NCBI GenBank assembly: GCA_010093745.1
Contig: MU006029.1
Span: 1 to 58,931, forward strand
Length of the DNA stretch: 58,931 nt
Origin: Piedraia hortae CBS 480.64
Taxonomy: Eukaryota
Reading direction: 5' to 3'
Part shown: piece after piece, positions 16,423 to 48,300 of the stretch
How positions within the stretch are numbered: position 1 is the first letter of the stretch
How the letters are laid out: each line of letters begins with the position of its first letter
Made by a program: the position numbers and the translations under genes
Notes under the pieces: model-generated
What the model saw: the letters and a program-made list of their open reading frames with translations, nothing else
Told to the model about the DNA's origin: nothing
Database searches by the model: none

Positions 16423-18205
16423 ATGTCCAAAACCTTCAGTTCCGGTGACGTGGCGTCGCATAACAAGACCGATAGCCTCTGGATCATTATCGATGAAGAC
16501 GTTTTCGATCTGACTCAATTCCAGGATGAGGTAAGTTCCTTGAGCTTCTTAGGTTAGTTATGATCAAACCTGACAATTATTGATAGCATCCGGGAGGAAA
16601 GAAGAGTAAGCCACATGCTTGGGCCTGAGGAGCCTGGCACTGACGTTGAGGATTACAGTCTTGCAACGCGTTGCGGGTAAAGATGCCAGCAAGCAGTTTT
16701 GGAAATACCACAACGAGGGTATCCTGAAGAAGTACAAGGGCAAGCTCCAGATTGGCTCGTTGGACTCCAAGAAGGCGGCCGCGCCTCCCACTCCTCCTGC
16801 ATCCCCCAAGGCAGCAGCGAAGAAAGAACAAGTCAAGCCCACTGCTGAGTCTGGTGTTGTGGCTCCAGCTCCCACCTCCGCAGCTGTGGAACAAAAAGAA
16901 GCTTTGGACCCGTTCGGTGATCTCATTCCCTACGCGGATCCCTCGTGGTATCAGACCTATTACTCCCCGTATTTCAACGAGACCCATGCTGCACTGAGGG
17001 CCGAGGTCAGGCAATGGATGGAGGATGATATCATTCCTAATGTGACCGAATGGGACGAGGCCAAGAAGGTTCCGGATAGCGTGTACAAAAGTATGGGCGA
17101 GCGAGGCTACCTCGCTGGTCTCCTTGGCCTTCACCCGTATCCTAGCCACCTCGTGGGTGGCAAGTCGGTCAGCTGCGTTCCGCCGGAGAAGTGGGATCTG
17201 TTCCACGAGGTGCTGATCACGGATGAGCTGTCCCGGTCCGGCTCTGGTGGATTTGTTTGGAACGTTATTGGAGGGTTCGGTATCGGCTGTCCTCCTCTTA
17301 TCAAGCACGGCAAGAAGGCTCTTGTCGATCGGATTGTCCCTGGCATCCTGGCCGGGGACAAGCGCATCTGCCTTGCCATCACAGAACCTGACGCAGGCTC
17401 CGACGTTGCCAATATTACGTGCGAGGCCAAGCTGAGCGAGGATGGCAAGCACTACATTGTCAATGGCGAGAAGAAGTGGATCACCAACGGTATTTGGAGC
17501 GATTACTTCACAACTGCCGTCCGCACTGGCACACCAGAATCGGGCATGAACGGCGTCTCTGTCTTGCTCATTGAGCGCGACATGGGTGGCGTCAGCACGC
17601 GTCGCATGGACTGCCAGGGTGTCTGGTCTTCCGGCACGACCTACATTACGTTTGAAGACGTCAAGGTCCCGGTTGAGAACCTCATTGGCAAGGAAAACCA
17701 GGGCTTCAAGGTGCTCATGACGAACTTCAACCACGAGCGCATCGGCATTATTATCCAGTGCATCCGCTTCTCGCGTGTGTGCTACGAGGAGAGCATGAAA
17801 TACGCGCACAAGCGACGGACGTTTGGTCAGAAACTGATCAACCACCCCGTCATTCGGTTGAAGCTTGCGCACATGGCGAGACAGATTGAAGCTTCGTATG
17901 CATGGCTGGAGATTCTCATCTACCAATGCCAGAGCATGAGCGACACCGAGGCCATGTTGAAGCTCGGCGGCGCCATTGCCGGCCTCAAAGCGCAGTCGAC
18001 AACGACGTTTGAATTCTGCGCGCGAGAGGCCAGTCAGATCTTTGGGGGTCTGAGCTACAGCCGCGGAGGCCAAGGCGGTAAAGTTGAGAGGCTCTACCGC
18101 GACGTCCGCGCCTACGCCATCCCCGGCGGTAGCGAGGAAATCATGCTTGACCTCTCCATCAGACAGGCATTGCGCGTTCACAAGGTTCTTGGCATGAAGC
18201 TTTAA
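16423..18205 (+). CDS. Cytochrome b5 domain-acyl-CoA dehydrogenase fusion
   Basis: Exons 16423-16530, 16587-16605 (HPGGKK) and 16659-18205. Cytb5 motifs LWIIIDEDVFDLT and HPGG. ACAD motifs CLAITEPDAGSD, NGEKKWITNG and IPGGSEEIM. Confidence 0.93.
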
Positions 18206-18342
18206 TGTAGTTTGCTGTATAGTTTGGATGGCAGGTAGCTTCAAATTTGATACATGTACCATACAAGATCCCTTGTCCGCCAAGCTTCGTAGCGTCACAC
18301 AAACACCACATAATCCAACAACACAAACACTACAAAAACACC

Positions 18343-18996
18343 ATGGCCCACGAAATCAACCAAACCGAAGCACTCAACCATCTCCGCACGAACCTCAAGC
18401 AAGTCGCCGGCGCTCTCTCCTCCATCCGCCATGACCTCGACCAAACCTCCACCATCCCCAGTTGGGACGACATCCAACGCGGAATCGAAAACGCGCTCCA
18501 ACATCTAAGTAACTACCACCACATCATGGAACAATACCGTCCCTTTTTCACCGCTGCGCACGCGTACCCCCTTCCTACCTTCCCTGGTCATGAGAAGGAG
18601 GCGGTGCTGGGGATGGTTATGCGTAAGAAACTTGAACCGCGCGTTGAGGAGTGGGTTGATACTTATGGGAGGCTTCGCGGAGAGGAGGGCGGGGATGGGA
18701 CGGAGGGGGCTGGTTTACCGATGGGGGAGGCGAGGGAGTTGTGGTCTTGGGCGGGGGGGAAGGTTAGGGAACTTGCGACGGAATTTGCGGATGCGTTGGA
18801 GGAGAATTTTACGATAAAGGAGATGGAGGATGGGGTGGAGAATGTTAGGACCGGGATTAGGAGGAATTTGGCGAGGGAGGAGTTTGAAGACGTGGAGGAG
18901 GAGGTGGAGGTGGAGGAGGATGAGAAGAAAGGGAAGAGGGTGCCGGAGCTGTCGGTGGAGCAGATGCTTAGGTTTATGCAGACGGGGAGTTTGTGA
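18343..18996 (+). CDS. MED8: Mediator subunit Med8
   Basis: PSWDDIQ, AHAYPLPTFPG and MRKKLEPRVEEWV motifs, acidic tail, ending LRFMQTG. ATG at 18343. Confidence 0.8.
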   Translation: MAHEINQTEALNHLRTNLKQVAGALSSIRHDLDQTSTIPSWDDIQRGIENALQHLSNYHHIMEQYRPFFTAAHAYPLPTFPGHEKEAVLGMVMRKKLEPRVEEWVDTYGRLRGEEGGDGTEGAGLPMGEARELWSWAGGKVRELATEFADALEENFTIKEMEDGVENVRTGIRRNLAREEFEDVEEEVEVEEDEKKGKRVPELSVEQMLRFMQTGSL

Positions 18997-19062
18997 TTTA
19001 CAGCATGGGTGGGTTATGGAAGGGCGCAGGGTGGTGGTCATCATTGCTTTAGCGTCAACGGT

Positions 19063-19971
19063 CTAGACTCTACAAAGCAAACAGCTTCTTGACCAACTCT
19101 TCTGTATCCTCAGGCTTCGTGACTGTATGGCCGATAGTACGTGGGTCTTCAAAGATTTCGTAATCGTTGCCGCCCTTGTACGTCTTGTCGCCGAAGAAGT
19201 GGATCTTGTCAAACTTGACACCATCCGGAAGCTTCTGATCCGCTTCAATGTGCTGGAGACAGTACGTCTTGTCCCACCCTTTGGGGAAGACGTCAAATGA
19301 GATCTGGCCGCCAATCGAATACCTGTCATGGCATTAGCAGATCATTCGACGTCACGTAATACATACGTAAGGCCGAGATCTGGAAACTTTTCCTGAATCT
19401 TCTGGATAAACGTCTTGCGGATGTTATGTTCAAGGTCAAATTTTTCGTAATCGATCCGTTCCTGCACAGATGCGTTCCTGCCGATGGGAGAAACATTAAT
19501 CATGCCGTTTCGAAACTCCACAAACGTGCCCCTCTTGACGGGAATATCAAGGTCTGCAATGTAGTGCAGGATAAACTTGACAAGCTCCTTGTACTTGTCC
19601 TCACCGATCCATTTGATAAAGCTGTGGGAAGCCAGGGGCTTGCCCATACGGATGGCCGTGAGGCCATTCTCCGCAAAGCAGAAATCGAACAGCGATGAAA
19701 CGGGAATGGAGGGGGTGCCAAGCTGTTCTTGCTGCTTGATCAAATCACTGCCGCCAACGAAACCAATGGCCACTTTGTGTCGTAGCTGGGACAACAACGC
19801 GAGCATTGAAGGGTCTACAGTCTGTCCATCGTTTAGTTGCGGAGGGATGGGGATTTACAGTCTACTTGCTCTACGCGCTGGGGTCAAGGTCCCGTCGACA
19901 TCGAAGAGGCATATTGTGTTTTTGTACGGGCGTTCGTTCAATGGCGGGATGACACTTGCTGCTACAGCCAT
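19063..19971 (-). CDS. SEC53: Phosphomannomutase (HAD family)
   Basis: [55 protein letters not shown] and FFGDKT. Three exons. Confidence 0.96.
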
Positions 19972-20148
19972 CTTGATATCCTTGACAGCTGTCTGGTTGT
20001 TGTTCGCTTCCACCGAGGATCGAGTCCCCCCCGCATTGCGTCACGCTAGCGCCCATTCTCCGAAGCTGTCTCGTGTCTTCAACTGCTCAACACGTGGATA
20101 GCGCTCAGTATCGTAAGAACCGCCTGCAGTATCTTGTAGACGCTCAGC

Positions 20149-21037
20149 ATGGAGGCCGTAGAGTCCGCCCTCCGTCCGCTTCTTCGACCAATCACACACA
20201 ACCTCCCCTTGCCCGTCCTCGAAGCAGCAACTCGCCTCCTGGGTGAACAATGCACCACATCGCTAGTCCAAAACATCAACCTAGCCGACATCCCTTGCCT
20301 AAAACTGGCGATATCCAAAGCCCTCGGACTCAGCATCATTGCAGCAAGCTCAATAGTCAAAGTCCCGCAAATACTCAAGCTCCTCAACTCGCAATCAGCC
20401 GCAGGCCTCAGCTTCACCAGCTACCTGCTTGAAACAATCTCCTACCTTATCACACTCGCCTATAACCTCCGCAGCGGCCATCCGTTCAGCACATATGGCG
20501 AAGTCGCCCTGATTGCTGTGCAAAACATGGCTATCGCGGTGTTGATCTTGCAATATTCCAGGAAGCAGGGCTTTGCTGCCGCTTTTGTTGGTGGCATTGC
20601 GGCCGCTAGTTATGCACTGCTCAATGAAGGCATTGTGGATTGGGAGATGATGAAGTACCTCCAAGCCGGCGCGGGTGTGCTTGGTGTCGCAGCCAAAGTT
20701 CCACAGATTTTGACTATTGCGCGAGAAGGTGGCACGGGGCAGGTGTCTGCTTTTGCGGTAAGTGAGTGCATATAACCCGGTGATGGATCTGATGAGTACA
20801 CAGGTGTTCAACTATCTCGCTGGCTCGTTGACGAGGATCTTTACGACGCTGCAGGAGGTTGACGATAAACTCATTTTGTATGGGTTCGTTGCGGGCTTCG
20901 TGCTCAATGCTATCCTCGCAGCGCAAATGATGTATTATTGGAACTCGAAATCGGTGGGTCCCTCTGTGAGGCAGGGTACAGGTTTGCCGAAATCAGGAAA
21001 GAACGTAGGTAGGAGCACTACGAGAAGAAAGGCTTAG
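20149..21037 (+). CDS. MPDU1: Mannose-P-dolichol utilization defect 1 (Lec35/MPDU1) PQ-loop protein
   Basis: CLKLAISKALG, two PQ motifs (VKVPQILK, AKVPQIL) and GTGQVSAFA|VFNYLAGSLTRIFTTLQEVDD. Intron 20758-20803. Confidence 0.9.
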
Positions 21038-23094
21038 ACGTGTTCGTGCTGAGGTATGGCTTAGTTGTTACACAGAAGAAACTTAATGAAAGTTGTCATT
21101 CTTCATGCCACATCCATTGCTGGTACAGACTTCAGTACAGGAATCAAATGTTGCCGATTGCTCGGCGGTAAGTTGTTCTTTTTGGCAAGGAACTTGTCCC
21201 AACCTTTCGTTGGACTTATCCAGTTGCTAGGACATATAATAATTCACTACCCATGTTGCTTAGTTGGGACATCTCATCTGGTGTAGACACGCTAACGACA
21301 CACTAATCGTACGCAGAACGGCACTCGACAAGGTCTTCGCGATTGCAGGTAATGTCATCCTTTGAAGCGACATGTGAAAGACCAGACAAGTCCCGATTGG
21401 ATGGTGATACTTCCGACTTCACGACGCAGCCTCACAAGACCTGGCACGATCCATTCACCAGATCCGGCCTGATGGTCTCGAGTGCCGAGTACGCACTGCA
21501 GTCGACGGTGTGTCGAACCGTTGGCTATGTATCATTCCAATGAGCCACCACCATAGGAAGAGGCTGAAATCGGTGGCTCCATGTCCTGCAGATTTCCGTT
21601 TTTAGCCCCCTTGGTCGGGTCACTTACATTCTCACCAATAGCAAAAGTACATCGTGGTTTGTATCTATCTTGCGTCAAGATGACTCCGTACGGCGGACTT
21701 GTCAGTGCGAATGGGGCCTTGTTCAGGGTTGGAAGCTACATTTCTTTCTAAAATAAGACTTGGCGTCTGCTGTGAGCCCGGTTGGGCACCACTGAGAAGG
21801 TGGGGCTAATGCGGGGCAAATCCTGGGAACTGGTAACATTCTCCTGTCAAAGAAGGCTGTTTGCATTCCTGGTAACACGGTAACGTGAAGTGTCGGTAGA
21901 TCTGCACCACCGCTCTTAATTGCTGGCGTTGAAATTTCAAAATACCTAGGAACCATCATGACCACTGAGCGCAAGGATGATCCAGCAAATCAGTCACATG
22001 ACATCCGCCAGGCTGGACAAATCTTGATATGACAAACAGGTTGCATGTATTGCGAAACTGATGAATACCTCCATGTATTCCGTTATGGGGACTAAGCAGT
22101 TGCTGAGTGGAATCATCTAAAAGAATAGCTTTCTGCCGGGCTGACAGAAAAATGCAGGTACATGATCCTAAAAAAAGCGTTAACAAGCCTCAATCGCTTT
22201 CAACTGTACATCAAAATATTACAGATGACTTCCGAAACGTGCAGAACAATACACGTACTTCACCCTGCAGCTGTTTCGCTAACATCACACAGCATGACAA
22301 AGCCTTTTACGCTCGATTTAGAGAATATCATCCGAACTATGCCTAGGTGTGTGTTTCATCTTTGTGTGCTATCTGATGACACGACTTTGCGGCTTCGAGT
22401 GCCAACACCCAGATGGGTGAGTTTACCTTGCATTTGTACGATACGGGTGTGACCTTCCTCCAAACGGGCCCTCACATATATGCTGTGTGATTGGGCATGC
22501 CATGGAGGGTGTCACTAAGCCTCGCGACAAGGCCTAGATGAGAGCAACAGAATATCTCGCTAACTTGCAGAACAATGGCCCGGTACTAAGTTTTGCATGC
22601 TGTTTCACAGGACAGCAGGCTGTCAGTAAAACACGAGCTATTCTCACCTCGATACAGTAAAGATTTTCACAAAACGCACAAAGCAATTGTTTCACATCTG
22701 CAGATCGTCTTCCATGACAGCTTCCTACCCCTTTGCGGGCCTAAATCTAGCAGTGGCAGGATCGATGGCACAACCTGAGTGACTCTATCGAATCCTCACA
22801 AACTGCTATTGTGCATGAATGGAGAAAAGAGTCAACGTTTCATGCCAAAGTCATGTCCAAAACGTACGCCGTACGACCAACGCTGTTTGGTATAGCACTT
22901 TACTGCTGCAGGTTGACTTGTCACTCATACGATGCCCTTCCTTTATATTCTTCTCTGGTTCTCTAGATGAGTTCCATATACTTCAACACACTTCAAGTTT
23001 TAACTCTACGCACGCCTACAAACAGCTGCTGGTCCAGCCCTTGACGATCTTGCTTACGACTTACGAACGTTACGAGACCATTCAGATACACGTC

Positions 23095-23403
23095 ATGCCC
23101 CGTTCAGATAACTTGCCTTCTGGCCAGTCCCGTGAGCCCAAAATCATTTCTTCGACTACCAATTCTACTTATAAGAGCTCCACGAATACCTTATCGGCTC
23201 CAAACGGGGGAGATCGGGGGAACTCGAAGAATGGAAAGAAATTTTACAACGAGCCGTCTTCGACTACCAATTCTACTTATAAGAGCTCCACGAATACCTT
23301 ATCGGCTCCAAACGGGGGAGATCGGGGGAACTCGAAGAATGGAAAGAAATTTAACAACGAGCCGTCGACCAAGGATGCTCAGTACGGGGGCTACAATCAG
23401 TGA
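23095..23403 (+). CDS. Small Ser/Thr/Asn/Gly-rich protein P1 (102 aa) with internal 36-aa duplication
   Basis: MPRSDNLPSGQSREPKIIS...KKFNNEPSTKDAQYGGYNQ*. Clear similarity to the ORF at 24975. TATA-like tttatat near 22942. Confidence 0.65.
   Translation: MPRSDNLPSGQSREPKIISSTTNSTYKSSTNTLSAPNGGDRGNSKNGKKFYNEPSSTTNSTYKSSTNTLSAPNGGDRGNSKNGKKFNNEPSTKDAQYGGYNQ
23149..23364 (+). repeat. 108-bp tandem duplication, two copies, one mismatch
   Basis: Units start at 23149 and 23257 and differ only at one codon (TAC vs AAC). Confidence 0.97.
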
Positions 23404-24974
23404 TGGCAAGACTGACGAGATACACGAATTTGTTAGGAAGCACTGTGCTGGACGCGTGCAATTCTTGCGGGCAAAAATGTAGCTAGCTGATTGCTCTTAT
23501 GAGAATGCGCTGGACTTATTGAAATTCTTGCTGGCAAAATGTGACTGGCTCATCAATGGTGATAAAAATTTTGAAGGTGGAGGCATTTTCTTTTACTGGG
23601 CGCACATTAAATTCACGTTCGCCTTCGTCATACAGGAGTGCCGTCCCACATGCACGTTTCCGTCTGGCTGACCCACAAACTTGCAAAAATAGGAAAGCGT
23701 CGACTGACCGCACACAGACCTTCTGTTAATCCACTTTCCTCTCAGATACTTCCCAAGCGATACCCAAAAGTGCAGCAGTAGGATAACAATATGCCAAGAA
23801 ATCTCCCACAAATAAGTCCATGCTGACTAAGATCAGATCTTAAGTGATGCGATTGGACCATTTTCGCCACGATCTCCGCCATGACCGTTCGATGGGTGGT
23901 TTGAACGACGGCGTTGTATGACTTATCATGCGTTGACACGCAACGATAGGAAAGCGAATGCCTTCTACTGAAATCTACCCTATTACAAGTTTCCAAGTGG
24001 TAGAGTAGGAAGCCACCTAAACAGATAGCTTCCTACGTAAGCTGTTTATTTCCTTCGCAACCTACCATGCCAAAATGACAAGGTGGCGCGCAACTGCGGG
24101 GTTGAAGGTAGTGGCATTTTTCCTCGTCAAACTAGACAAAAACAGCCCGTGGCTTGCAGGTCAAGATGGTCGCGTGGCAGCATATTTTCGCTGATGCTTC
24201 ATTTGGCATGTTTAGTCATCTCGAGCATGCTCATGTTTGATCTCCCGTTCACCAAGCAGGCTCGATCCTGATGCATTGTTCCAACATTAGATTGTGAAGA
24301 ACGCGCTATACCGTAAAGAGCATATGATGTCAGGATCTTGTCGATCACCCGTAGTGCAACTCGGATCAGCGAACACTGACTCACTGACAATCGCAATGCG
24401 ACTGGAACTCCCAATTGCAGCTGTGGAGGGGAACAAATTCTGGCAGCATAGTCCAGCCAGTAAGATCGCAGGTACCGTCGTATTTTAGCTCGGCAGGTGA
24501 GCTAAAAACGTCGCGCTATACCGTAAAGGTACGGCAGCCGTTTCTACCAGCTCACATGAAGGCTGGAAACAACAACCTGCGCCTCATCGGCAGAGTTTAC
24601 CACTGATTGCGCCATGTTCAAAAAAACGGCGTCGCTCTTGCTGGCGCAGTCGTGGCTTTCTCGCGGTATCGAAAATGTATGACTGTACGGGGTAAGAGTC
24701 ATACTCTATGTTCCCAAATCCTGTCATGCTGTGCTTGGACGAGCCAACCGCCATGGCCGGCGAAGGGCCACCCAGCAGTGTAAAAGCGGATCTGAGTCAC
24801 CATTCTTTACTCATCCGTTGGAAGACTCATTCGTTTCTTATAACTACTCTCTCGTCTGGCTGATCCTTTCTTCCATCTCAAACACATCCATACAACTGAA
24901 GACAATCGTTTAAGCTACTACTCGACTACTCCTCTTTGAATCACCCTACCAGTCTGCCGCAACTGAATTCTAAG

Positions 24975-25157
24975 ATGCCTTATCGACCTTCGTCAACTAC
25001 CTCGAGCTCAAGCGAGAAGATCAAGTTCGATACTCCTCCTAAGTCGATTGTGTACACAACACAATCAAAGACCACAAGCACGTACACCAGCTCTAAAAAG
25101 TCATACAACCTAGGTCCGTCAAGCACACAAGCTCAGAACGGCGGTTATTGGGGATGA
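24975..25157 (+). CDS. Small Ser/Thr-rich protein P2 (60 aa), paralog of P1
   Basis: MPYRPSSTTSSSSEKIKFDTPPKSIVYTTQSKTTSTYTSSKKSYNLGPSSTQAQNGGYWG*. Upstream tataa (~24839) and a C/T/A-rich leader. Confidence 0.65.
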   Translation: MPYRPSSTTSSSSEKIKFDTPPKSIVYTTQSKTTSTYTSSKKSYNLGPSSTQAQNGGYWG

Positions 25158-26588
25158 GATTTAACGAGACGATTTCTACTTGCATTTGCATTTTTGACGG
25201 TAAATGATTGATGATTCAAGCGAATGGACGGATGGGAATACATGGCATAGATTGTAAAGCAGGAGTATTGTAAAGTGGAATATCTGTATTGTTAGAAGTG
25301 GGTCGATATACAAGGATTTGGTGGATTTTGTCCATGTGAGATCTTCCTTCCTTTAGCCACATCCTCTATAACGCCACTCTTGCTGCGCATCATTCAGTGC
25401 AGTGACTCACCTATCCCATCTGACCTCTTTGCCCGTGCAGCGCACCGTCATTGTATGACTCGTAAACTTCACGCACCAATCAGCGACCTCCCCATGCTTT
25501 ACAACCACTCATTCTGTAACGAGGCTATGATACGTCATAAACGCCTTAACTCAACAGCTGGCATAAGGTCGGCCGGTAACGACCGATGTTAACAAGGTTT
25601 TGTCGCGCGGCCAGGGACATGGCGCAACGATGCCGACCGCGCCACGCTAGTACCTGGGCTAGCCTGCTGCGACCCTGCACCACATTCTGTGCGTGGCCCT
25701 GACATTAGACCGAGGTTCCAAAGCCAGGCACAAGAAAGGCGTGGCTGCAGTAGAACTATTTTCACCCATTATCGCGTGACGACATTTGAGACGGGTAACA
25801 CAACGATACAGTCACCAACAACCCCTGGAGGCGCTCCATGAACTTTACTATGGCTCTTCTGCTATGGACCTATTGAAGGCCATGGTAGGCTGCACTTTCC
25901 CCCGTTATAGACTTCGCTGCTGCATACGCCGCTGCGTTCTTGCGGCTTGGAGAATGCAGTGTTCAGCTTTGTTGCAGGCACACTGGTTTGACATGCTAAG
26001 TCGGACTTATGTACCTGACTGTGTGCATGTTGATGGTAATGTATCTCTATTAGAATGTATAGCTGACACCTCCGGACACATTTCATGTGTCAACTAATTG
26101 CTCTTCACCAGCCAATCTCATTTGAAGGGTCAATCCTGGTAGATTCATACTGATCTCAGCCATCCTCGAGCTGCCTATCAAACCAATCAATCTGTCAACC
26201 ACCCTCACTGTCAACCCCCGTGCTGTAACTCCAGTCGCAGCTGTTACCCAGACTCTTTCCAACCCCCTCCACTCACTCACCAACCCGTCATACCCATACA
26301 AACCCTGCACTCTCTCATTTATATATCTCCCTCTTTCTTCTCTGCCACCCAGTTCACTACATACTTATACAACTTCAACAGCATCTTCATTCATCTATTA
26401 CTCAACTCACTCTTCTTCCCCCAAGCCACCATCCTATCAGACCAACCACACACATTCAACTCAATCTTTTAAGTCATCCCATCAAGCCTATTCAACAGTC
26501 CTTCCACAACCCACCATCCCACCGAGTTATTCCCAACCCCTGAGTCAAGCCACATCACACCAAGTTATCCTAATTCCTTCCAAACTAA

Positions 26589-26729
26589 ATGTCTTCCTCC
26601 ACCACCTCCTCAGGCTCGGGATCCTCGAGCTCAGGTGGATCAGGAAATCCACCTAAAATCGTCTCAAACCCTAACCCACCGAGACCAAAGCCAATGCCAC
26701 CGAGAGATCACAATGGCTATCATCCTTGA
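26589..26729 (+). CDS. Small Ser/Gly/Pro-rich peptide P3 (46 aa), below the ORF-track cutoff
   Basis: MSSSTTSSGSGSSSSGGSGNPPKIVSNPNPPRPKPMPPRDHNGYHP*. ATG context taaATG. Upstream tttatatat (~26318), a C/A-rich leader and a G/T-rich trailer like neighbouring genes. Confidence 0.55.
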   Translation: MSSSTTSSGSGSSSSGGSGNPPKIVSNPNPPRPKPMPPRDHNGYHP

Positions 26730-27010
26730 TTTGGGGATGGGAGATAGAAGTGTAGATAAGATTGGGTTGCATTTGGATTGTATTGATAGCGTGGGGTTGC
26801 ACCAAGGATAGAAGATAAACATTGGGTATAGACTTCGGACTGATATGCATTGAATTTTCGACAAACTCACCCCTTCAGAATTTTTTTTGATGTGTAATTT
26901 GCTTCCGTTGTATAGTTGACATAACCGCACCGCCTTCGAGAGCTCTTGGCCGACTGATCTCCTCCGAGATGGCAACTCTGGTGAAGACATACCAACGTGT
27001 CCGCTACAAC

Positions 27011-27237
27011 CAAGCTGTCATTCGAGCTGTCATTCGAGCTGTCATTCAAGCTGTCATTCAAGCTGTCATTCAAGCTGTCATTCAAGCTGTCATTCAAGCT
27101 GTCATTCAAGCTGTCATTCAAGCTGTCATTCNNNNNNNNNNCATTCAAGCTGTCATTCAAGCTGTCATTCAAGCTGTCATTCAAGCTGTCATTCAAGCTG
27201 TCATTCAAGCTGTCATTCAAGCTGTCATTCAAGCTGC
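27011..27237. repeat. 12-bp minisatellite (CAAGCTGTCATT)n spanning an assembly gap
   Basis: About 18 visible copies, two with a CGAG variant. N-run at 27132-27141, so the true length is unknown. Confidence 0.97.
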
Positions 27238-27459
27238 CAAAGGTGTCGACATCATGCAAGCCATCAACCAACGACAGTCATTCCAGTCGACGCTGGTAGC
27301 TAACTGTGTTCCAACTTTCCGTTCGTGACATCCATCCAAGCAGCTACTTAACATCTCCTCTTTTCTCTCCTCCCTCCCTACTCTCACTTCACCATCTTCC
27401 CATTTTTTAGTCTACCATCAACAGAATCAACCTACCAAACCTCCATCCCTATAACAAAC

Positions 27460-27723
27460 ATGAAACCACCCCAACCACCAACCAATCCTTCCTTAACGGA
27501 CAACCTCAAACTCTCAAAATCAAGAGACATTTCTACAACCTCAAAAGGCCACAACCCGGGGCCCAGCGAACCACCGGAGAAATCCACCAATATTTCCAGT
27601 TCGACAGGAGCGACAGACCACAAAGCGGAGGCCAGTAAATCACCAAAGGAACCTGAGATTATCATCCATTCCAGCCCAAACGTGGTGAAAATTGAACGGC
27701 AGCATAGTAAGTATTATTCTTGA
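27460..27723 (+). CDS. Small Pro/Ser/Lys-rich protein P4 (87 aa)
   Basis: Ends KEPEIIIHSSPNVVKIERQHSKYYS*. ATG context aaacATG after a CT-rich leader, with a G/T-rich trailer. Confidence 0.5.
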   Translation: MKPPQPPTNPSLTDNLKLSKSRDISTTSKGHNPGPSEPPEKSTNISSSTGATDHKAEASKSPKEPEIIIHSSPNVVKIERQHSKYYS

Positions 27724-29763
27724 GATTGGGGTAGAGTGGGGTGAATCTATAGAGTTAGGAGGGAGTTGTGTTGGTAGCTTTGGTATTGAGTGGAAATGAC
27801 ATACACGTTGGCGTAAGAGTTATTCTTTTTGGTGTGAGCGGTGGGCTATCTACCGGGATTAACTGTGCTTCTAACAGCGCCTCGCTGGTAAATTTCGTCC
27901 GGGGTGTCAGCTGAACTGGAACTATAGCCACAATCAAGTTGGCCATCACAATAATCAGATGTCCACCACACTCATCCAAGTAGTCAACGATAGTCACTCC
28001 AGTGGAAACCGTTAGCTAATCACTTTCTACCTCTCTCTTGTTATTCCAGTCTAAGCAAAGTGGTTCACACCTTCTCCTCCCTTTCTACCCTCTTGGACAC
28101 ATCCTTCATCCAGCCCTAGTTAAGCGCAGAATAAATGCCCCAAGAATGCAAAGCCTGACCCCCCAAATCCTCGAAGTCAAAAGACTGTCCTACAGCCTCA
28201 ACAGCCAACTCGGGTCCAGTGGCTATATATTCAAAACCATCCTCCATCCCTACCCGAGAAACCGTCGTGAAGAAGGTAAGGCAGCATGCCAGCCATTTTC
28301 CCTAATCTGTGGAGTAGTTGGGGGATAGATTAGAGTGTGAGTGCATCAATCCCATCGGACGACATGAAATAAACTTTCGTAGAATATAACCCATGGGGTA
28401 TACTCATCGAGCTACACAACAACCTCAAAGAATGAAAGAGGGCAGTGAGTCAAAAGATTAAAAGACACATCTCTACCCCTGTCCTCCCAGTGGAAAGACT
28501 CCATCTATACCCAAACCGGCCTTGACATAACTTCCTAAAACCCAAAACCCACCGCAAACACATCTGGGTGCGAATGCATCCGCTCAACCCGACGCTATCT
28601 GTTCGTCTCTACTCTCCAAAAGGTGCCTACCCACCCTTCATCCCCTCCCCCTGTGCTCCCAAGCCNNNNNNNNNNNNNNNCTCCTCAGGGTCGCGAATCG
28701 GGGCAGGTCCATAATCAACCTCGCCAATAGCCCGTCCATCAAGTGCCCTCTCCAGCAACAAATAATAACCCGCTTCTTCAAACTTCCCAGCCTCGTTATT
28801 GCCAAGCCTCCCAGGCCAGGATGCGCATCCCTCCGAAACGCCCATTCGTCTTTTGAGCCGGCAGTCAGGGAACTCGACACGACATGATTCCGGATCCGGT
28901 ATGGCTGTGGAATCCATGATACTTAGCACGTACAGTGGCCCTTGGGCTCCACTTGTTGTGGGGGCGGGGTTTCACTTTGGTCCACCCTGCTGTGGCACTT
29001 CGTGCTCCTCCTGGCCGATATCATCTCTCGGACTCTGCTCGTCATTTGGGTAATGGTAGTCATTCGGACGGTTGCTTTAGTCGTTCAGCATGTACGTCAC
29101 AAATGGCCTTCGTTGGGCGTGGAGTAGCGATTTTCGCGGCTTGGTGGTATTTTGGCTGGGCATTCGAGAACGCCCAGGCAAGAATTTTAAGTTACCATTG
29201 GGTCCTTTCCGTGTACCATCGCCCAGCGGATGGCACGACACAGTGAGGTCGGCATCAGTCATGTTAATTGTATAGTCTTGCTCTCCACTGGGCCATTCTG
29301 GAGGACAGTGCTCTGGAACAAGTTCATCATGACTCGGAGACACCGGTGCGTTCGTGCCGGAAGTCTCATCTGCAATGGGGCATTCTTGCTTGAAAACCAA
29401 TAGCTCAGGTTCAGCAGGCATGGGGAACACCAGACCCAATAAAAGTGAGCCCCTGTATCTTTCAGATCATGTATATTCCGAAAGAGGTCTAACATGCGCT
29501 GCACCGCGTTGGTTAGCTCCATACACCGCGTGAACAGTTTTGTCCGCTTCCGGCTCGACCACAGACGGGGTATTTCAAGTCTCTCAAGTCAGTAATGGGG
29601 TCTGCACCAGAAGGGTTGGCACAGGAGAGCTGCTGTTGGTTGTCTCGTACCATCCGCAGCAAGTTTTAGTCAAGTTCTCCAGCTCTTGACGAGAGGGCTG
29701 AGTCGAGGAGGGCTTTGCATTGGGGGCGTGTAAAGCGGATGTCCTTGATATATTGGAGCATGG

Positions 29764-32700
29764 TTAGCTGCCTGGACTGATCCTGCAACAACTCAATTTA
29801 CAGGTTGAACAAGTATTTCCAGAGGACCGTGTTCTGGAGATGTAAGGTTCCAATGGGGATACAGGTTCCAGTATCTTTTGGTTCGAATTGAAATTGCCAT
29901 TCTCGCCTTTCTTTCTTGCTAATGCAAACAATATTGTTCGAGACTTCCGCCCTGCCATTTGGCGCCAACTGGACAGGGAGGTGATGGAGAGTGATTTCAT
30001 GTGATTGGAAAAAGTGGGGAAGTGCATTGCCCCCATACTCCCTGCTGCTGTCGAGGTGATAAATTGAGATTTCTCAACTCCTGAGCCGCCCCTTTCGTGA
30101 GGGGAGGGGTAGACGTGGCGATATAATATTGTAGAGTCAGTGATCAATGTCGTATGCTGCATAAAATTTTGCCCAATTGTCACCGATGTGACTGTATGGA
30201 GACAAGTCCGGAATCTTGAACCCCATTGCAGACGGATATTTGACACTGCGTAGCCTGAAAGTGACCTCTTCGCGAGATGTGCGCAATCAAAGAGATTCAT
30301 ACCGGTGGCTTCCAACAAGGGCTTCTCACAGTCTTTTGTCCATCCGTCCACTGCGAAGTATTTGCCGCCAATGCAAAGGCGACGGGAACCACCCTCCGCT
30401 TGCAGTGCCATTTGTGCCTTCGTTTTCCCCAGACGTCTGAGCTATACGGTTGATTGGCCGACTGGACTCTCCATTGTAACTCCTGCATCTCGCTAGGTGG
30501 TTGCCGGGACGTGCTGGGTGATTTGAGTCCATACGTTCTACTCTTGTTGCATCTCACTGGGTGCTGTCATTGCCGTCGCTTGACTGATGGAACAGTCGCT
30601 GTCGCAGAAATTCGGTATTAGTTTTGTTATGTAACCAGCGGCATGCACGAAACCGCGATCTTCTGTTGGCGTAATTAGTATGGGCCTATTCCTTATCGCC
30701 GCTATCTTTTCTTTCTCATGCAGCTTCTGGGCTCGACGATACCGAGAAGCTTCGATTGATTGTGTGGACATCGGCATTATACATCCGTCTCGGCTTCGAT
30801 TCTCCCGCACTTTCGGGGCTTGCTTAACGCTGACTGGAAGCAGCTGAAAATGCAGAAACGCAGGAAAGTATGGCCTGAAGCTCGCTGGATATCGTCAATG
30901 AAATTAGGTAAAGGATGTGCGTGCCTCTTGGTTATCCTGCCCAAAGCACAATTGTCACAGCAGATGCGGTATACCGACCGCCATGTACGTTTATTCTGTG
31001 GGTGAGGACCACGCCGCTCGTACTCTTATGAACGATTGTGCCCAGTCTGGCCTTTATGAACTCTTGCAACGTCCTCGCTGTAGAGGCTGCATTTCGTTGG
31101 CATGATCAAATGGTAAATGGGATTTACGCTTGGTATTTGCAGCCCGGACCAAATTGTCATGATATGCATCGCGCACGTAGATCACGCTTGCCTTGTCTAA
31201 TACTCTTGCACCATAAGTTATCTGATGTTTCAACTGAACTGGGACCACAAGCACGAGCGCTAATCAGCGAAGTCGAGCCATCTATTATGAAACCCGGCGA
31301 AGGGCGCCGGACTGGCAGAGTCCTCCCCATCATCTTCCTCCATTGGGCCCAGCTTGTCCATGCAATTGGCTTCAGCAGCCGTTCTCGCCGCCCACGATAC
31401 TAAAAACCTCATTCAGGCTTGAAATTGATCAGGATCTCACGAGCCAGCACGCAAGATGTGAGGTGCATGAAAAGTTCACTGGGTTGTGGACTTAGCGGAC
31501 CGACGAGACCCACGTATTGCTGTCCCAGAGCTCACTGTACGAGCCAGAGGACGCAATGTAGCGTGTGAGCAAGTCAACGGGGCTCAGGTAATAGATTGCA
31601 ACGTTGACTCATGATGACGAGGTGCAATGGGCTCCCACTTGATGCCGCGTTTTTTGCAGATGGAGCAAGAAGCCATGTATTCTCCAGCGTTGTGGGACCT
31701 GGACCTTTTGAAAACCACAAATTTCGGCTTTATCATCATCCTTCTGTTTGAGGAAATGAACCCAGGTGTAGCGGGTGACCGTAGCCAAGCGTTTGCAAGA
31801 TGTATTCTCTTCTTCACGTCATGTTGACTAGCTTCGCAAGATCGGCCATGCGCGGCACATACTAGCCCTCATACTTTGCTGTAATCAGAAGGCAAGTCGT
31901 ACTTAGCAAAGGAAGTTTCTCAGGGTAGATAACGCGCGTGGAGAGGCTGCATTCTCCAGGTTTGTTACGGCCTCTCCTCGCCCTACAACTCCGCTACAAG
32001 TCATTCTGCCTGACCTATCCCAGTCATTCTTGCGGCAGAAGTCGACCGCTCGCCTGCAATATATAGGGCTATCACGAAGCATCTATTCCCACGTTTCGCT
32101 TCGTCAGTCACAGTTTTGTGCAATTTCTGAAGGGAACTTGATCCAGAAGGCCATGGCATTAGCCTCCCGATCTTATGAACGGCATGGCACACTTTGTGCT
32201 TGGCAAGGAACGTCCGCAGCTGCTTTAACCACCCAGAGACGACTGAGCAAACTTTTCCTCGTTCTACAAGACAATGCGCCAATGGCACTAACATTCCAGG
32301 CCAACTTGTTCGGTAATTTGCGTCGATTACCAGCACATTGTGGTCATCTTACAAGGTGTCTACCAGTTTGGGGTGGGCCAAAAGCAATTGTCGTTGTGGT
32401 CGGCATCATCAGGCTCCCAGTTTTCCATGCCTGCTTCCGAAAACCTGGCGTCAGCGTCATCCGCACTTCTCGAGTTACCATAGTTGTTGTAGCGGTGCAG
32501 GAGAGTCTCTTCCTCAAGCCACTCAGCTGGTCCGTGGCGAGTAAAGATTCCTTGTGCCTCCTTGGTTGCTTGGCGCATCTGCGAGCAACAGAAAAATGGT
32601 TTATCCTCAGGCTTGAGCAGCCACCACCGCATGTCCTGGAGCAGCTCCAGGATATCGTGCTCGAGGTCAGGTGGGTCAACGCGAAATGCCTTTTCCAGCC

Positions 32701-44792: not shown

Positions 44793-45351
44793 AGGACTAT
44801 ACCGTATGTGTACCGCGTAGAACTTCCGCTTATTATGAGTGGTACATTGAAACAGCGCGGTATTCTCGGAAAGGCACGGTAGATAGAGTTCCTAGAAGTT
44901 CAAGGTCCGTGCGATAATAGTACAAGAACCGTGTATAGAAAACTCTATCGCGCCAGAAGTTACCAGACAAAAACTGTGCGCGTTTAAGACCAAACCCAAA
45001 CCTACAATCTCCTCTCTAGGCCACCTCGACTTATGTCAGTAAGTCGAGCTGATCCAGGGGTGAGTAGGAGGTGTCTCGCTCACGTTACGCAAAGATGTCA
45101 TTCTATAGAATCCCACCACAAAACCTGGCCAGGATCCTGAAAGCTATTGGGTTTTTGGCCAGGGATTGATATTATGTCGCCCTGGTTAGTCCATTTGGGT
45201 TACTGTTGTGAGCGAGTCTCGGCGGCGAACGTCATCCGCTCCAATCACTTGCGCGTCGTCGATTGATTTATGCCTGCACGCCACTTTAACCCCGCCTCAT
45301 TCGACCTCAGCCTCCAGTTTCCTTTTCTCACCACCTTTCACCGTAAAAAAC

Positions 45352-48300
45352 ATGCCAGAGTGGGTGAGACGCTTGAAAGCAAAGGGAAAATCGAATATCC
45401 CACATCAGCAAGCTTCCACTGGAGATGCATCCACCTCCCGGGTTCCAGCTTCCACTGTACAGCCTTCGCTGCCCTTGCCGCAGCACACTCTGTCAGTTCA
45501 GACTTCAGCTCTAGCGCTAGCACCGCGAAACCCCTTTGAAGACAAGGGCAAGTTACTACGCGATGCCCTCGATGATCCCGACACTGAAGATCCCACGTTT
45601 GTTGAGGAGCAACTTGGGCCGAACAGTGATGTTGAGAAAGACGCAGCCAGAGTCGAGACCTTAAGAGGCCAAAACCAAGCTGAAAGGTCCAATCAATGGA
45701 TTGCGAGCATGAAGAAGATCGCTTGTCAAATCATGCAATTTGCGCCAGTAGTTGACGTTGCGACGAATGTCAAACCAGAGGTTCTTAGCCTGCCGTGGGC
45801 CGGCATCCGCTCTCTCTTGATGGTAAGCAGCAGTGCTGTGCAACTGCGACCCTGAATGACCCCATTTCTCTAGGTGGCCCAGAAAACTCAAGAGCAAAGT
45901 GAATCGATCCTGGACGGAATCAAAACGGTGCTGGACACAAGCCACCTGTTGAACGTGTATTTTGACATATACGGCCAGCTTGATGCGACGCCCGCAATTG
46001 GACATCTGTATCTCAACGTCGTTAAGCTCTACGGTCTCAATCTGACTTTCGTGGCCCACGCTCAGCACACATACGACATGAACAAGTTTGAGCGGATGAT
46101 ACAATCTCTGACTGGTCAAGTCATACCAAAGTTCAAGACTGATCATGACAGAATGCTGAGGACGGTTGAATACCATGCAAGAGCTGTCGATCGCGAGGTC
46201 TCGGAGGAGCAGCGGACATGGGTCAATGAAAAGCTCAAGAGGCTGGAGAAGACCCAAGCAGAGATCAATCAAGGAGTTAAAGGCGTTCAGCAAACGCTAA
46301 ATCTTAATGCTCTACAGGTAGCTGCTGGAGCAGCTTATGATTCGATGGACTACAGTGGTGACAACCAGGATGGTGACTTTCAGTTGTGTCTACACGGCAC
46401 CCGAGTCGATATCACAGAGGCCATACAAAAGTGGGCCACCACCAACGATGAGCAAAGGGTATTCTGGCTATCCGGGAAGGCTGGGACGGGTAAATCCACA
46501 ATTGCTCGAACCGTTGCCCACGAATTGGCGAAACAGGGGTATTTGGTGGGCAGCTTCTTTTTTAAGCGCGGCGGCGACAGCAAACTGAGAAAAGCTCAAT
46601 ATCTGTTTCCCACCATTGCCCATCAAATGGCTTATTTCACACCTAGCATCAGCGACAAAATCGCTGACGCCTCTCGCGACTCCCCTCCTGATGAAAATTC
46701 AAAGGCCCTGGAAAAGAAGTTCGAGATGCTCATCCAGGGACCGCTTTCAGGGTATAGCACGGGCTCAGCAACTGATGTCAGGGCGATTGTCATCGATGCA
46801 ATCGATGAGTGCGACGCCAGACGAGCAGTAGGGCAAGCCATGAAACTCTGGCCGAAGCTTAGTTCTCATACCTCTATGAACCTGAGGGTATTCGTAACGA
46901 GTCGGTCGGACAATGAGATCTGGGGCACGCTCGGCCAATTGGAGCCCAAGTATCTCCGGTACGAGAGGCTTGAAGACTGGCAATCGAGTACCATCGAAAA
47001 TGACCTAAGACGGTATTGCGGGAATGAGCTGAAGAAGATTCGTGAGGAGCGCAAGAACAATTTAGTTCCCGATGAATTAGGAGATGAATGGCCTGGCGAA
47101 GACGTCGTTGACAGGCTGGTTCAGATATCTCAGCCACTATTCATCGCGACTTCAACAATCCTTAGGGATGCCAGAAATGATCCAGGACATCTTCAAGAAC
47201 GGGTAAACGGGCTAAAATCTACCGGTACAGATGCGCTGACCGCAATCTATCTGGATATTCTGAACCAAGCTGCTAAGCTCGACATAAAGTGGCCGAATTG
47301 GTTTGGCCAGGTCATCAAGCCATTGGCCGTTCTTCATTCTTCTCTCACCATCTCGGCACTTACGGATCTCTTGGGAGGGAATACCATGGTTGTTGCTAAT
47401 GCTCTCAATCCCTTGAGTTCCGTAATTGAGTTTCCAAGTGGCAAGGAGGTCAAGGCGGGTTCACGGGCTGCGGTACGAGTTTACCACGAATCTTTTCGAG
47501 ACTTCCTCATGGATCCTAGTCTTAAGGATCATCCTGAATTCTGGATTGACCAAGGAGAAGTACATGGCGTGCTCATGAGTAAATGCCTAAATTTGCTCGA
47601 GAAGAAGTTAGTCCATGATGTTTGCAAGCAGAAACATCCTGGAACGGAACGCGAAGATGTGCCCGCCGAGTGTATCGACAGGCATATTCCCGAGTCAGTA
47701 CAGTACGCCTGCCGGTACTGGACCAGCCATGCAATCCATAGCAATGAGGCAATCGAAGATGGCGGACAAGTAGATCTTTTCCTACGCGCATTTCTTCTTT
47801 ATTGGACAGAAGCAATGGCCTGGCTGGGTAAGCTTGGGGAAATGGTAGTATGCCTAAAGCAGCTGCGAAAGGCCATCGACGTATGTATCGCTTCCGTTTC
47901 CGTCTGCCGAAAGTATGCCTAACCTTGCGCAGTCACAATCATCGCCCAGACTACACTCCTTTGTCGCCGATACTCTAAGATGGGTTCCGGCAATCCGAAA
48001 CCTGATCAGCGATACACCGCTTCAGACATATTCCTCAGCACTAGCCTTTGCGCCGAGCAACAGTGTCGTACGAAAGAGCTTCAGAAGTGACATGGAAGAT
48101 TTCTTGCAAGTTTGGCTGCCAGTCGCGACTGATTGGGGCTTTGAGTTGCAAACCCTGAGGGGGCATAGTCATTTTATACTGTCGATAACGCCTTCAATCG
48201 ACGGGAGACGGCTTGTCACCGTTGGCAGGGACAACACAGTGCGACTATGGGATGTTGAAAGCGGCACCGAAGAAAAACGTACGGAAATTGGAAGGTCATA

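What the first reader, a model, noticed from the sequence alone, without database searches (positions are those of the whole stretch)
23095..27723. Cluster of four small same-strand genes sharing a P-[KE]-(x)-I-[IV] motif and a Tyr at position -3: candidate undescribed peptide system
Seen: four intronless + strand ORFs of 102, 60, 46 and 87 aa at 23095, 24975, 26589 and 27460, in an otherwise gene-free stretch. Each has a low-complexity Ser/Thr/Pro/Gly N-terminal part and a hydrophobic motif (EPKIIS, PPKSIVY, PPKIVS, EPEIIIH). Each ends with Tyr third from last (GGYNQ*, GGYWG*, NGYHP*, SKYYS*). P1 and P2 are clear paralogs (TTNSTYKSS/TTSTYTSS and KKFNNEPSTKDAQYGGY/KKSYNLGPSSTQAQNGGY). All four have pyrimidine- or C/A-rich leaders, and three have a TATA-like motif upstream. 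None has Cys, a signal peptide or a CAAX box, so they do not fit a-/alpha-pheromone or KEX2-repeat RiPP precursors. Inference: an array of diverged micro-proteins whose C-terminal end is the functional unit, such as a processed peptide, docking/degron motif or amyloid-type signalling motif. No tailoring enzyme is visible nearby.
Basis: partly seen in the sequence, partly recalled or inferred. Interest (0 to 1): 0.8.

Follow-up and report, generated by a model that had tools for sequence, protein, structure and literature searches.

The report
Orphan short ORFs, not peptide system
Four short reading frames in a gene-poor stretch of a fungal contig really share a small motif and a tyrosine near the end, but they look like young species-only or chance frames rather than a new peptide system.

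Summary
All four + strand ORFs, the P-[KE]-(x)-I-[IV] motif, the Tyr at -3, the lack of Cys and the G-poor leaders are present as described.

As evidence for a gene family they are weak:
- **Similarity:** only P1 and P2 resemble each other beyond composition (p 0.002-0.009), and P1 ranks only 5th of 297 window ORFs against P2. The other five pairs have z below 1.
- **Motif:** if any 4 of the 11 local + strand ORFs may be chosen, 83% of shuffles give a motif as specific.
- **Tyrosine:** a residue shared at one C-terminal offset arises in 51 of 130 shuffles.
- **Both in the same four ORFs:** rare locally, 1 of 130 and 0 of 140 shuffles.
- **Homologues:** none credible in any database searched.
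- **Status:** P1 is an annotated orphan. P3 is not coding-like.
- **RNA:** a minus-strand spliced RNA lies over P2.
- **Context:** no tailoring enzyme, signal peptide, Kex2 site or adjacent NLR.

Best reading: young orphan ORFs, with P1 and P2 possibly paralogues and P4 possibly real, plus a chance frame. The system as proposed is not supported, and interest is low.

The parts
23095..23403 (+). P1: 102-aa ORF rich in Ser/Thr/Asn/Gly. It is an annotated orphan protein. The frame is open from 22819.
   Evidence: ORF. The exact sequence is in NCBI/UniRef as a singleton cluster. Pfam gives only weak sub-threshold matches (best DUF6970, E 0.015, 15.5 bits against a cut-off of 27). No homologue by word search. 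The HMMER profile gave no credible one: itself plus two repeat-driven hits. The Atlas model has pLDDT 0.23. Codon test z 1.67. An RNA contig reaches 23178.
23149..23364 (+). Recent in-frame tandem duplication inside P1: 2 copies of 108 bp, 99% identical, adding 36 residues.
24975..25157 (+). P2: 60-aa ORF, possible diverged paralogue of P1. Not annotated.
   Evidence: ORF. Not in the protein collection. Similarity to P1 p 0.002-0.009, but only rank 5 of 297. Codon test z 2.3-2.4, 2nd of 55 local ORFs. No homologue.
24386..26111 (-). RNA contig that carries a minus-strand intron and lies over the whole P2 locus. It has no ORF above 74 aa, so it is a candidate non-coding or antisense RNA.
   Evidence: record 3 (1658 nt, joint 25342>25411). 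ORF scan of the spliced form.
25343..25410 (-). 68-nt intron of the minus-strand RNA, with GTGAGT donor and AG acceptor.
   Evidence: skips 68, ends CT..AC on the + strand. Sequence read.
26126..26588 (+). G-poor (4-15% G) C/A/T-rich tract upstream of P3. It holds CCAAT strings and a TATATA string at about 26319. All three + frames are open for more than 100 codons.
26589..26729 (+). P3: 46-aa ORF, most likely a chance frame.
   Evidence: ORF. An ORF this long arises in 57% of Markov simulations of the local DNA. Codon test z -1.36. Not in the collection.
27460..27723 (+). P4: 87-aa ORF, coding-like but unannotated. Its last codons overlap a GTAAGT at 27707-27712.
   Evidence: ORF. Codon test z 2.1-2.2, but the antisense ORF 27435-27665 scores z 2.2 as well. 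Chance ORF length p 0.06. No homologue. Sequence read.
26730..26850 (+). C-poor, G/T-rich tract directly after the P3 stop. A like tract follows P4 at about 27724-27860 and a weaker one follows P2 at about 25200-25300.
   Evidence: The skew switch ranks P3 1st, P4 3rd and P2 7th of 315 ORFs. It is strand-symmetric, since the ORF antisense to P4 ranks 4th, and the known genes do not share it.

Best explanation
The stretch from 21 to 31.9 kb is a gene-poor, lineage-specific piece of a filamentous-ascomycete contig, and part of it appears to be decaying. RNA contigs cover much of it, and at least one transcript is spliced on the minus strand.

Within it lie short ORFs with no credible relative anywhere else. 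My reading of each is:
- **P1 and P2** are probably diverged tandem paralogues. P1 is annotated and was recently lengthened by an in-frame 108-bp duplication. Both would encode small, intrinsically disordered, non-secreted proteins rich in Ser, Thr, Asn and Gly.
- **P4** may be a third, unrelated young ORF.
- **P3** is most likely a chance frame in a G-poor tract that is poor in stop codons.

I infer that the shared P-[KE]-(x)-I-[IV] motif and the Tyr at -3 come from two things. One is G-poor codon make-up (CCN, AAR, ATY, TAY). The other is that the four ORFs and the motif were chosen together. On this reading they are not the mark of a processed or docking peptide.

**Shown:** the ORFs and the motif; the absence of credible homologues; the absence of signal peptide, Kex2 sites and partner enzymes; the minus-strand intron.
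**Inferred:** P1-P2 paralogy, the disorder, that these are young proto-genes, and that no peptide is processed.
For: - **Pairwise similarity.** P1-P2 has z 3.0, p 0.009. The other five pairs have z 0.12-0.98. With one P1 repeat copy left out, P1-P2 has z 3.4-3.9, p 0.002-0.007.
- **Motif.** With free choice of 4 or more of the 11 + strand ORFs in 22819-27723, the real set holds 4 motifs at least as specific. 83% of 150 shuffles do as well.
- **Tyr.** Some residue is shared by 4 or more of the 11 ORFs at one offset from -1 to -5 in 51 of 130 shuffles.
- **ORF length by chance** in local Markov simulations: P3 0.57, P2 0.22, P4 0.06, P1 0.028 (0.20 without the duplication). All three + frames are open for 104-176 codons at 26126-26808 and for 63-123 codons at 27352-27720.
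- **Codon test.** P1 z 1.67, P2 z 2.34, P4 z 2.20, P3 z -1.36. Real-gene chunks average z 2.81. The 52 other local ORFs average z 0.12, and 8% of them exceed 1.64.
- **Annotation.** Of the 5 sequences looked up (the four ORFs and P1's long form), only P1 is in the public protein collection. Of 10 control ORFs, 1 is.
- **Homologues.** No credible homologue turned up. P1 found only itself. P4 and P2 had no candidates. A P1+P2 HMMER profile against 1.84 billion representatives found itself plus two repeat-driven hits that I judge spurious. The metagenome scan confirmed 0 of 555 pattern matches. The Atlas gave no usable hit for P1 or P4.
- **Structure.** The Atlas model of P1 has pLDDT 0.23.
- **RNA.** RNA contigs cover the start of P1 and all of P2. 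The one strand-informative joint beside P2 is a minus-strand intron.
- **Region.** Pfam on 238 stop-to-stop fragments from 21 to 32 kb finds only a fumarylacetoacetase N-terminal relic.
Against: - The motif and a shared C-terminal residue falling on the same four ORFs is rare in shuffles: 1 of 130, and 0 of 140 at a slightly stricter threshold at which the real set itself did not score. For the four ORFs taken as fixed, 0 of 500 shuffles reach the motif. Chance is therefore a comfortable answer only after allowing for the many regions and windows scanned.
- The pooled codon score of the four ORFs is above its composition-matched null (z 2.72, p 0.003). More of them may be real genes than I assume.
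- P3 and P4 align collinearly and both end R-x-H-x-x-Y-x-x-stop (read). This could be a trace of common descent that the shuffle test (z 0.5) is too blunt to see.
- All four share a switch from G-poor leader to C-poor trailer. It ranks 1st, 3rd and 7th of 315 ORFs for P3, P4 and P2.
- The P1-P2 paralogy that I accept is itself weak. Four unrelated ORFs score higher against P2, and S/T-rich parts of other genes score nearly the same in tblastn.
Confidence: 0.5

Rival explanations
1. A real four-member family. P1-P4 would descend from one small gene by tandem duplication and fast divergence. They would keep a short hydrophobic P-[KE]-x-I-[IV] patch and a C-terminal Y-x-x end as the selected parts. 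These could be a docking or degradation signal, or a processed peptide, in small disordered cytosolic proteins.
For: - All four are on the same strand within 4.6 kb.
- Exactly these 4 of 317 window ORFs carry both features.
- The joint occurrence is found in 1 of 130 shuffles, and in 0 of 140 at a slightly stricter threshold at which the real set itself did not score. With the four ORFs fixed, 0 of 500 shuffles reach the motif.
- The pooled codon score is z 2.72.
- The tails form a chain of likeness: AQxGGYxx* in P1 and P2, NG(G)Yxx* in P2 and P3, RxHxxYxx* in P3 and P4 (read).
- All four share the leader-to-trailer composition switch.
Against: - Five of six pairs show no similarity beyond composition, and none shows at the DNA level.
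- The motif lies at different places: residues 15-18 of 102, 22-26 of 60, 22-25 of 46 and 64-67 of 87.
- MAFFT aligns P2's PPKSIV with the repeat junction of P1, not with EPKII.
- P3 is not coding-like.
- P4's Tyr sits in a possible intron donor.
- The minus-strand spliced RNA lies over P2.
- There is no credible homologue and no partner gene.
- The features were defined after looking.
Confidence: 0.2
2. None of the four is a functional gene. All would be chance frames in transcribed, decaying intergenic DNA. The RNA would come from non-coding or antisense transcripts, and the annotated P1 would be an ab initio over-prediction.
For: - The spliced minus-strand RNA has no ORF above 74 aa.
- A pseudogene relic lies in the stretch.
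- There are no credible homologues.
- The ORF lengths are reachable by chance: 0.028 to 0.57.
- The ORF antisense to P4 scores as high as P4 in the codon test.
- The composition switch is strand-symmetric and absent from known genes.
Against: - P2 and P4 rank 2nd and 4th of 55 local ORFs in the codon test, and P1 has z 1.67.
- For P1, P2 and P4 the ORF's own frame is the best of the six.
- P1 and P2 are similar at p 0.002-0.009.
- The 108-bp duplication in P1 kept the frame.
- P1 passed a public annotation.
Confidence: 0.3

Closest known systems
Lineage-restricted orphan ORFs or 'proto-genes' arising de novo from transcribed intergenic DNA. The concept is recalled from Carvunis et al. 2012; I did not read the paper here.
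   Same: The ORFs are short. No credible homologue turned up in any database searched. RNA contigs cover two of the loci. Codon adaptation is weak to moderate. The composition is predicted to be disordered. The setting is a gene-poor stretch that also holds a gene relic.
   Different: De novo origin cannot be shown without the syntenic DNA of relatives. Translation is untested. P1 and P2 may have arisen by duplication of an older small gene rather than de novo.
[quoted passage not shown] Source: PMC7329392, abstract and passages read.
   Same: They are small fungal ORFs. P1 has an internal tandem repeat that contains Tyr. Several small ORFs are clustered.
   Different: There is no ER signal peptide and no KR or RR site. 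P1 has only two repeat copies, with no cleavage sites between them. No DUF3328, tyrosinase or other tailoring gene appears in any Pfam scan of the window.
NLR-associated amyloid signalling motifs, such as HET-s/HRAM and PP. Source: PMC5485727, abstract and passages read.
   Same: A short C-terminal motif with Gly, Asn, Gln and an aromatic residue (AQxGGY). A NACHT-WD40 NLR lies in the same window.
   Different: In that system the motif ends an effector protein such as HeLo, encoded by the gene directly beside an NLR that bears the same motif at its N-terminus. Here the ORFs have no such domain. The NLR is 18 kb away, with seven Pfam-supported genes between. tblastn of the four ORFs against the window finds nothing at the NLR's 5' region better than E 3.6.

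Membership tests
Kex2-processed repeat proteins / ustiloxin-type RiPP precursors | N-terminal ER signal peptide (PMC7329392) | tested here: not met
   The highest Kyte-Doolittle mean over 11 residues in the first 30 aa is -0.38, 0.00, -0.43 and -0.59 for P1-P4. No dedicated signal-peptide predictor was available.
Kex2-processed repeat proteins / ustiloxin-type RiPP precursors | Highly repeated core sequences separated by Kex2 sites (KR/RR) | tested here: not met
   None of the four has a KR or RR dipeptide. Only P1 has a repeat, and only two copies.
Kex2-processed repeat proteins / ustiloxin-type RiPP precursors | A DUF3328 (UstYa) or tyrosinase gene nearby, as for cyclised members | tested here: not met
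   No such family appears among 35 large ORFs of the window or 238 fragments from 21 to 32 kb.
NLR-associated amyloid signalling motif pair | The motif is the C-terminal extension of an effector-domain protein such as HeLo | tested here: not met
   Pfam at E up to 10 finds no effector domain or amyloid-motif family in P1-P4. The only rows are two sub-threshold matches in P1: DUF6970 (E 0.015) and Peptidase_A2B (E 3.9).
NLR-associated amyloid signalling motif pair | The directly adjacent gene is an NLR with the homologous motif at its N-terminus (PMC5485727) | tested here: not met
   The nearest NACHT-WD40 gene is at 45874-49999, 18 kb from P4, with seven Pfam-supported genes between. No tblastn match of the four ORFs lies there below E 3.6.
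Ascomycete lipopeptide (a-factor-like) pheromone precursors | C-terminal CAAX box | tested here: not met
   None of the four ORFs has any Cys.
Orphan / proto-gene ORFs | No detectable homologue outside the lineage | tested here: met
   Searches found no credible relative. P3 was never searched on its own for relatives (exact look-up and Pfam only). Power is limited: no related fungal genomes were held, and earlier notes on this genome describe its relatives as distant.
Orphan / proto-gene ORFs | Transcribed on the ORF's own strand | tested here: inconclusive
   RNA contigs cover the start of P1 and all of P2, but contigs carry no strand. The only strand-informative joint, beside P2, is on the minus strand.
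Orphan / proto-gene ORFs | Translated | not testable with these tools
   No ribosome-profiling or proteome data could be reached.

The most novel reading that the evidence does not exclude
P1-P4 are a species-restricted, fast-diverging tandem family of small disordered cytosolic proteins. Selection would act only on a short hydrophobic P-[KE]-x-I-[IV] patch and a C-terminal Y-x-x end, which would be a new short-linear-motif or peptide module with no known partner. Three results keep this open. Both features fall on the same four ORFs in only 1 of 130 shuffles, and in 0 of 140 at a slightly stricter threshold at which the real set itself did not score. The pooled codon score is z 2.72. All four share the same switch from G-poor leader to C-poor trailer.
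Probability: 0.2. Interest if true: 0.5.

Novelty: not a real feature. Interest (0 to 1): 0.15.

Why it matters
If the four ORFs were a true family, they would be an example of micro-proteins kept only for two tiny sequence patches, and a lead to an unknown fungal peptide or docking system.

As the evidence stands, the value is mostly cautionary. In G-poor DNA with few stop codons, short ORFs readily share proline, lysine, isoleucine and tyrosine features. A motif chosen after looking can seem significant: 0 of 500 shuffles for the fixed four ORFs, but 83% once the choice of ORFs is free.

The stretch is still a reasonable place to study orphan-gene birth. It holds P1 with its very recent in-frame duplication, the possible P1-P2 pair and an overlapping spliced antisense RNA.

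Tried and rejected
- **Whole genome.** None is held.
- **Sequencing runs.** No RNA holder was listed. The single run X1, labelled only as a guess, carries spliced joints when laid. It is kept as contigs, so it gives no strand, no transcript ends and no usable level.
  - The bins holding P3 and P4 have the lowest summed contig depth (2.3-5.3). I do not count that as evidence of silence.
  - 12 of the laid records were not shown.
- **DNA-level homology of the four loci.** My eye saw likeness around the stop codons (TTGGGGAT-type strings). ATTGGGGW occurs 3 times against 4.2 expected. Local alignments of tails, leaders and ORFs against dinucleotide shuffles gave nothing in 18 tests, best p 0.01. 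No direct or inverted repeat links the loci.
- **Hairpin or MITE.** I checked this as an explanation of the switch from C-rich to G-rich DNA. No arms were found.
- **P4 splicing.** GTAAGT at 27707-27712 and CTAACAG at 27871-27877 would replace the last five residues by four others and a stop (read). No contig shown supports or excludes this, so it stays speculation.
- **HMMER profile hits.** P0003 is an 1825-aa protein of Thr-rich repeats with 17 matched stretches. P0004 is a 423-aa tandem-repeat translation containing HKIISCNTNST. I judge both to be driven by repeats and composition, not homology.
- **Pfam.** I then sent stop-free fragments. Weak single hits (YMF19_C, Cuticle_4, Cyclin_N; E 2e-4 to 1e-2 among 238 fragments) are taken as chance.
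- **Other blanks.** Rfam and tRNA scans of 21-32 kb. Atlas look-alikes. The metagenome scan. Earlier findings of this scan near the place, by sequence and in relatives.
- **Scripts.** One threshold rounded too strictly made the real set fail its own test. This was corrected.

Full report
**Setting**

The window is a 58,931-base contig-like piece of a filamentous ascomycete. Earlier notes of this scan call the genome a small Dothideomycete genome.
- Left of the finding lie an acyl-CoA dehydrogenase, phosphomannomutase, Med8 and a PQ-loop gene that ends at 21037.
- Right of it lie GPR1/FUN34, an SDR, a tyrosyl-tRNA synthetase, a GNAT, Pescadillo, PIG-U, cwf21 and a NACHT-WD40 NLR at 45874-49999.
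- Between 21.0 and 31.9 kb no frame of 150 codons or more is open, except 22819-23403 and 29764-30441.
- No whole genome is held.

**The observation**

The four + strand ORFs, their motifs and their ends are as described.
- None has Cys, KR/RR or a hydrophobic N-terminus. Ser, Thr, Pro, Gly, Asn and Gln make up 52-74% of the residues.
- The 200 nt upstream are G-poor, at 0.06-0.16.
- Of 317 ATG-ORFs of 40 aa or more in the window, 17 have Tyr at -3, 6 have the motif and 4 have both. Those 4 are these ORFs.
- P1's frame is open from 22819 (194 aa). It contains a 108-bp tandem duplication, 99% identical and in frame.
- P4's last codons overlap a GTAAGT, and a CTAACAG lies 165 nt downstream.

**Are the four related?**

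- Against composition-preserving shuffles only P1-P2 stands out: z 3.0, p 0.009. With one repeat copy left out it is z 3.4-3.9, p 0.002-0.007.
- The other five pairs give z 0.12-0.98.
- P1 is only the 5th best of 297 window ORFs against P2.
- In tblastn, S/T-rich parts of other genes score about the same as the P1-P2 match: E 0.003-0.004 against 0.002.
- MAFFT aligns P2's PPKSIV with the repeat junction of P1, not with EPKII.
- At the DNA level, tails, leaders and ORFs show nothing in 18 tests, best p 0.01. No repeat links the loci.
- P1-P2 paralogy is therefore possible, not clear. P3 and P4 have no demonstrable kinship, although both end R-x-H-x-x-Y-x-x-stop.

**Is the motif plus Tyr more than chance?**

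- With the four ORFs fixed, no shuffle of 500 yields a motif of that shape as specific.
- If any 4 or more of the 11 + strand ORFs in 22819-27723 may be picked, the real set holds 4 motifs at least as specific. The best is E-[CP]-I-[AI]. 83% of 150 shuffles do as well.
- Some residue shared by 4 or more of the 11 ORFs at one offset from -1 to -5 occurs in 51 of 130 shuffles.
- Both on the same ORFs occur in 1 of 130 shuffles, and in 0 of 140 at a slightly stricter threshold at which the real set itself did not score.
- That is roughly 0.4-0.8% for this region and strand. With about 24 comparable sets per window, and many windows read, it is not striking.
- The motif residues are encoded by G-poor codons (read), which the local DNA favours.

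**Are they genes?**

- *Length.* Local Markov simulations give an ORF as long in 57% (P3), 22% (P2), 6% (P4) and 2.8% (P1; 20% without the duplication) of cases. Around P3 and P4 all three forward frames are open for long stretches.
- *Codon pattern.* Each ORF was tested against stop-free Markov copies of itself.

| ORF or set | z | p |
|---|---|---|
| P1 | 1.67 | 0.056 |
| P2 | 2.34 | 0.011 |
| P4 | 2.20 | 0.015 |
| P3 | -1.36 | 0.911 |
| All four pooled | 2.72 | 0.003 |
| Real-gene chunks (mean) | 2.81 | - |
| 52 other local ORFs (mean) | 0.12 | - |

  Of the 52 other local ORFs, 8% exceed z 1.64. The ORF antisense to P4 scores 2.23, as high as P4.
- *Annotation.* P1 alone is in the public protein collection, as a singleton. 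Of 10 control ORFs only the 215-aa one at 29764-30411 is.
- *Homologues.* No credible one turned up. The two profile hits are repeat-driven.
- *Structure.* The Atlas model of P1 has pLDDT 0.23.

**RNA**

The one run found proved to hold spliced RNA. It has GT..AG and CT..AC joints in the flanking genes.
- One contig runs from 16837 to 23178 and stops where P1's repeat begins.
- Another covers 24386-25342 and 25411-26111. It skips 68 nt with a GTGAGT...AG intron on the minus strand.
- That contig lies over the whole P2 locus and reaches 589 nt upstream of its ATG. A minus-strand RNA is therefore very likely antisense to P2.
- Its spliced form has no ORF above 74 aa.
- Contigs give no strand or level otherwise.

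**What the stretch is**

- Pfam on 238 stop-to-stop fragments finds one credible relic. Positions 21735-21535 (-) match the N-terminus of fumarylacetoacetase: Pfam E 7e-4, and PDB chains align over residues 5-42 at E 0.07. There is no room for the rest of the gene before the PQ-loop gene.
- There are no Rfam families or tRNAs.
- No tailoring enzyme is present anywhere in the window.
- Each ORF sits at a switch from C-rich to G-rich DNA. The switch is strand-symmetric and is not seen at the known genes. I cannot explain it.

**Verdict**

- Most likely (0.5): a gene-poor, partly decaying, transcribed stretch with young orphan ORFs. P1 and P2 are perhaps paralogues, P4 is perhaps real and P3 is a chance frame.
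- Rivals: a true four-member family (0.2), and no functional gene at all (0.3).
- Compared with known kinds, the ORFs fail every tested defining feature of Kex2-processed RiPP precursors, of NLR-linked amyloid motifs and of CAAX pheromones.
- They fit orphan or proto-gene ORFs as far as could be tested.

Noticed in passing
window 21535-21735 (-): A 67-codon open frame matches the very N-terminus of fumarylacetoacetase. Pfam FAA_hydrolase_N gives E 7e-4, below the curated cut-off. PDB FAH chains align over residues 5-42 at E 0.07. A GTAAGT follows the match, but there is no room for the rest of the gene before the PQ-loop gene, and no other FAH piece was found. It is probably a relic of a lost tyrosine-degradation gene.
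   Followed up: partly
window 24386-26111 (-), intron 25343-25410: A spliced minus-strand RNA with no ORF above 74 aa lies antisense to P2. It is a candidate long non-coding RNA. A TATATAAA string on the minus strand lies at about 26328-26320.
   Followed up: partly
window 27011-27236: A minisatellite (CAAGCTGTCATT)n of about 18 copies is interrupted by a 10-N assembly gap. It keeps a 119-codon frame open (26969-27328) that reads AVIQ repeats.
   Followed up: no
window 28666-28680: The 15-N assembly gap is flanked in the RNA contigs by loose ends made of long C runs. The gap probably hides a C homopolymer.
   Followed up: no
window 19822-19869 (-): An intron of the phosphomannomutase gene has CT..GC ends on the + strand, so it is a GC-AG intron on the minus strand. 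The neighbouring intron at 19319-19362 is GT-AG.
   Followed up: no
window 26100-28400: Blocks of G-poor, C-rich DNA (200-460 nt, G down to 4%) are each followed by about 100-130 nt of C-poor, G-rich DNA (C down to 5%). The pattern recurs at 26.1-26.85, 27.3-27.86 and, more weakly, 28.0-28.35 kb. It reads the same on both strands, and I have no explanation for it.
   Followed up: partly
window 16577-18355 (-) and 16610-18205 (+): Two long overlapping frames lie on opposite strands. The + frame is an acyl-CoA dehydrogenase and has + strand introns just upstream, so the minus frame is a shadow ORF.
   Followed up: partly
window 45874-49999 (+): A NACHT-WD40 NLR gene. Pfam finds no domain in its first 180 residues or so, nor in the ORF upstream at 45190-45852.
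   Followed up: no
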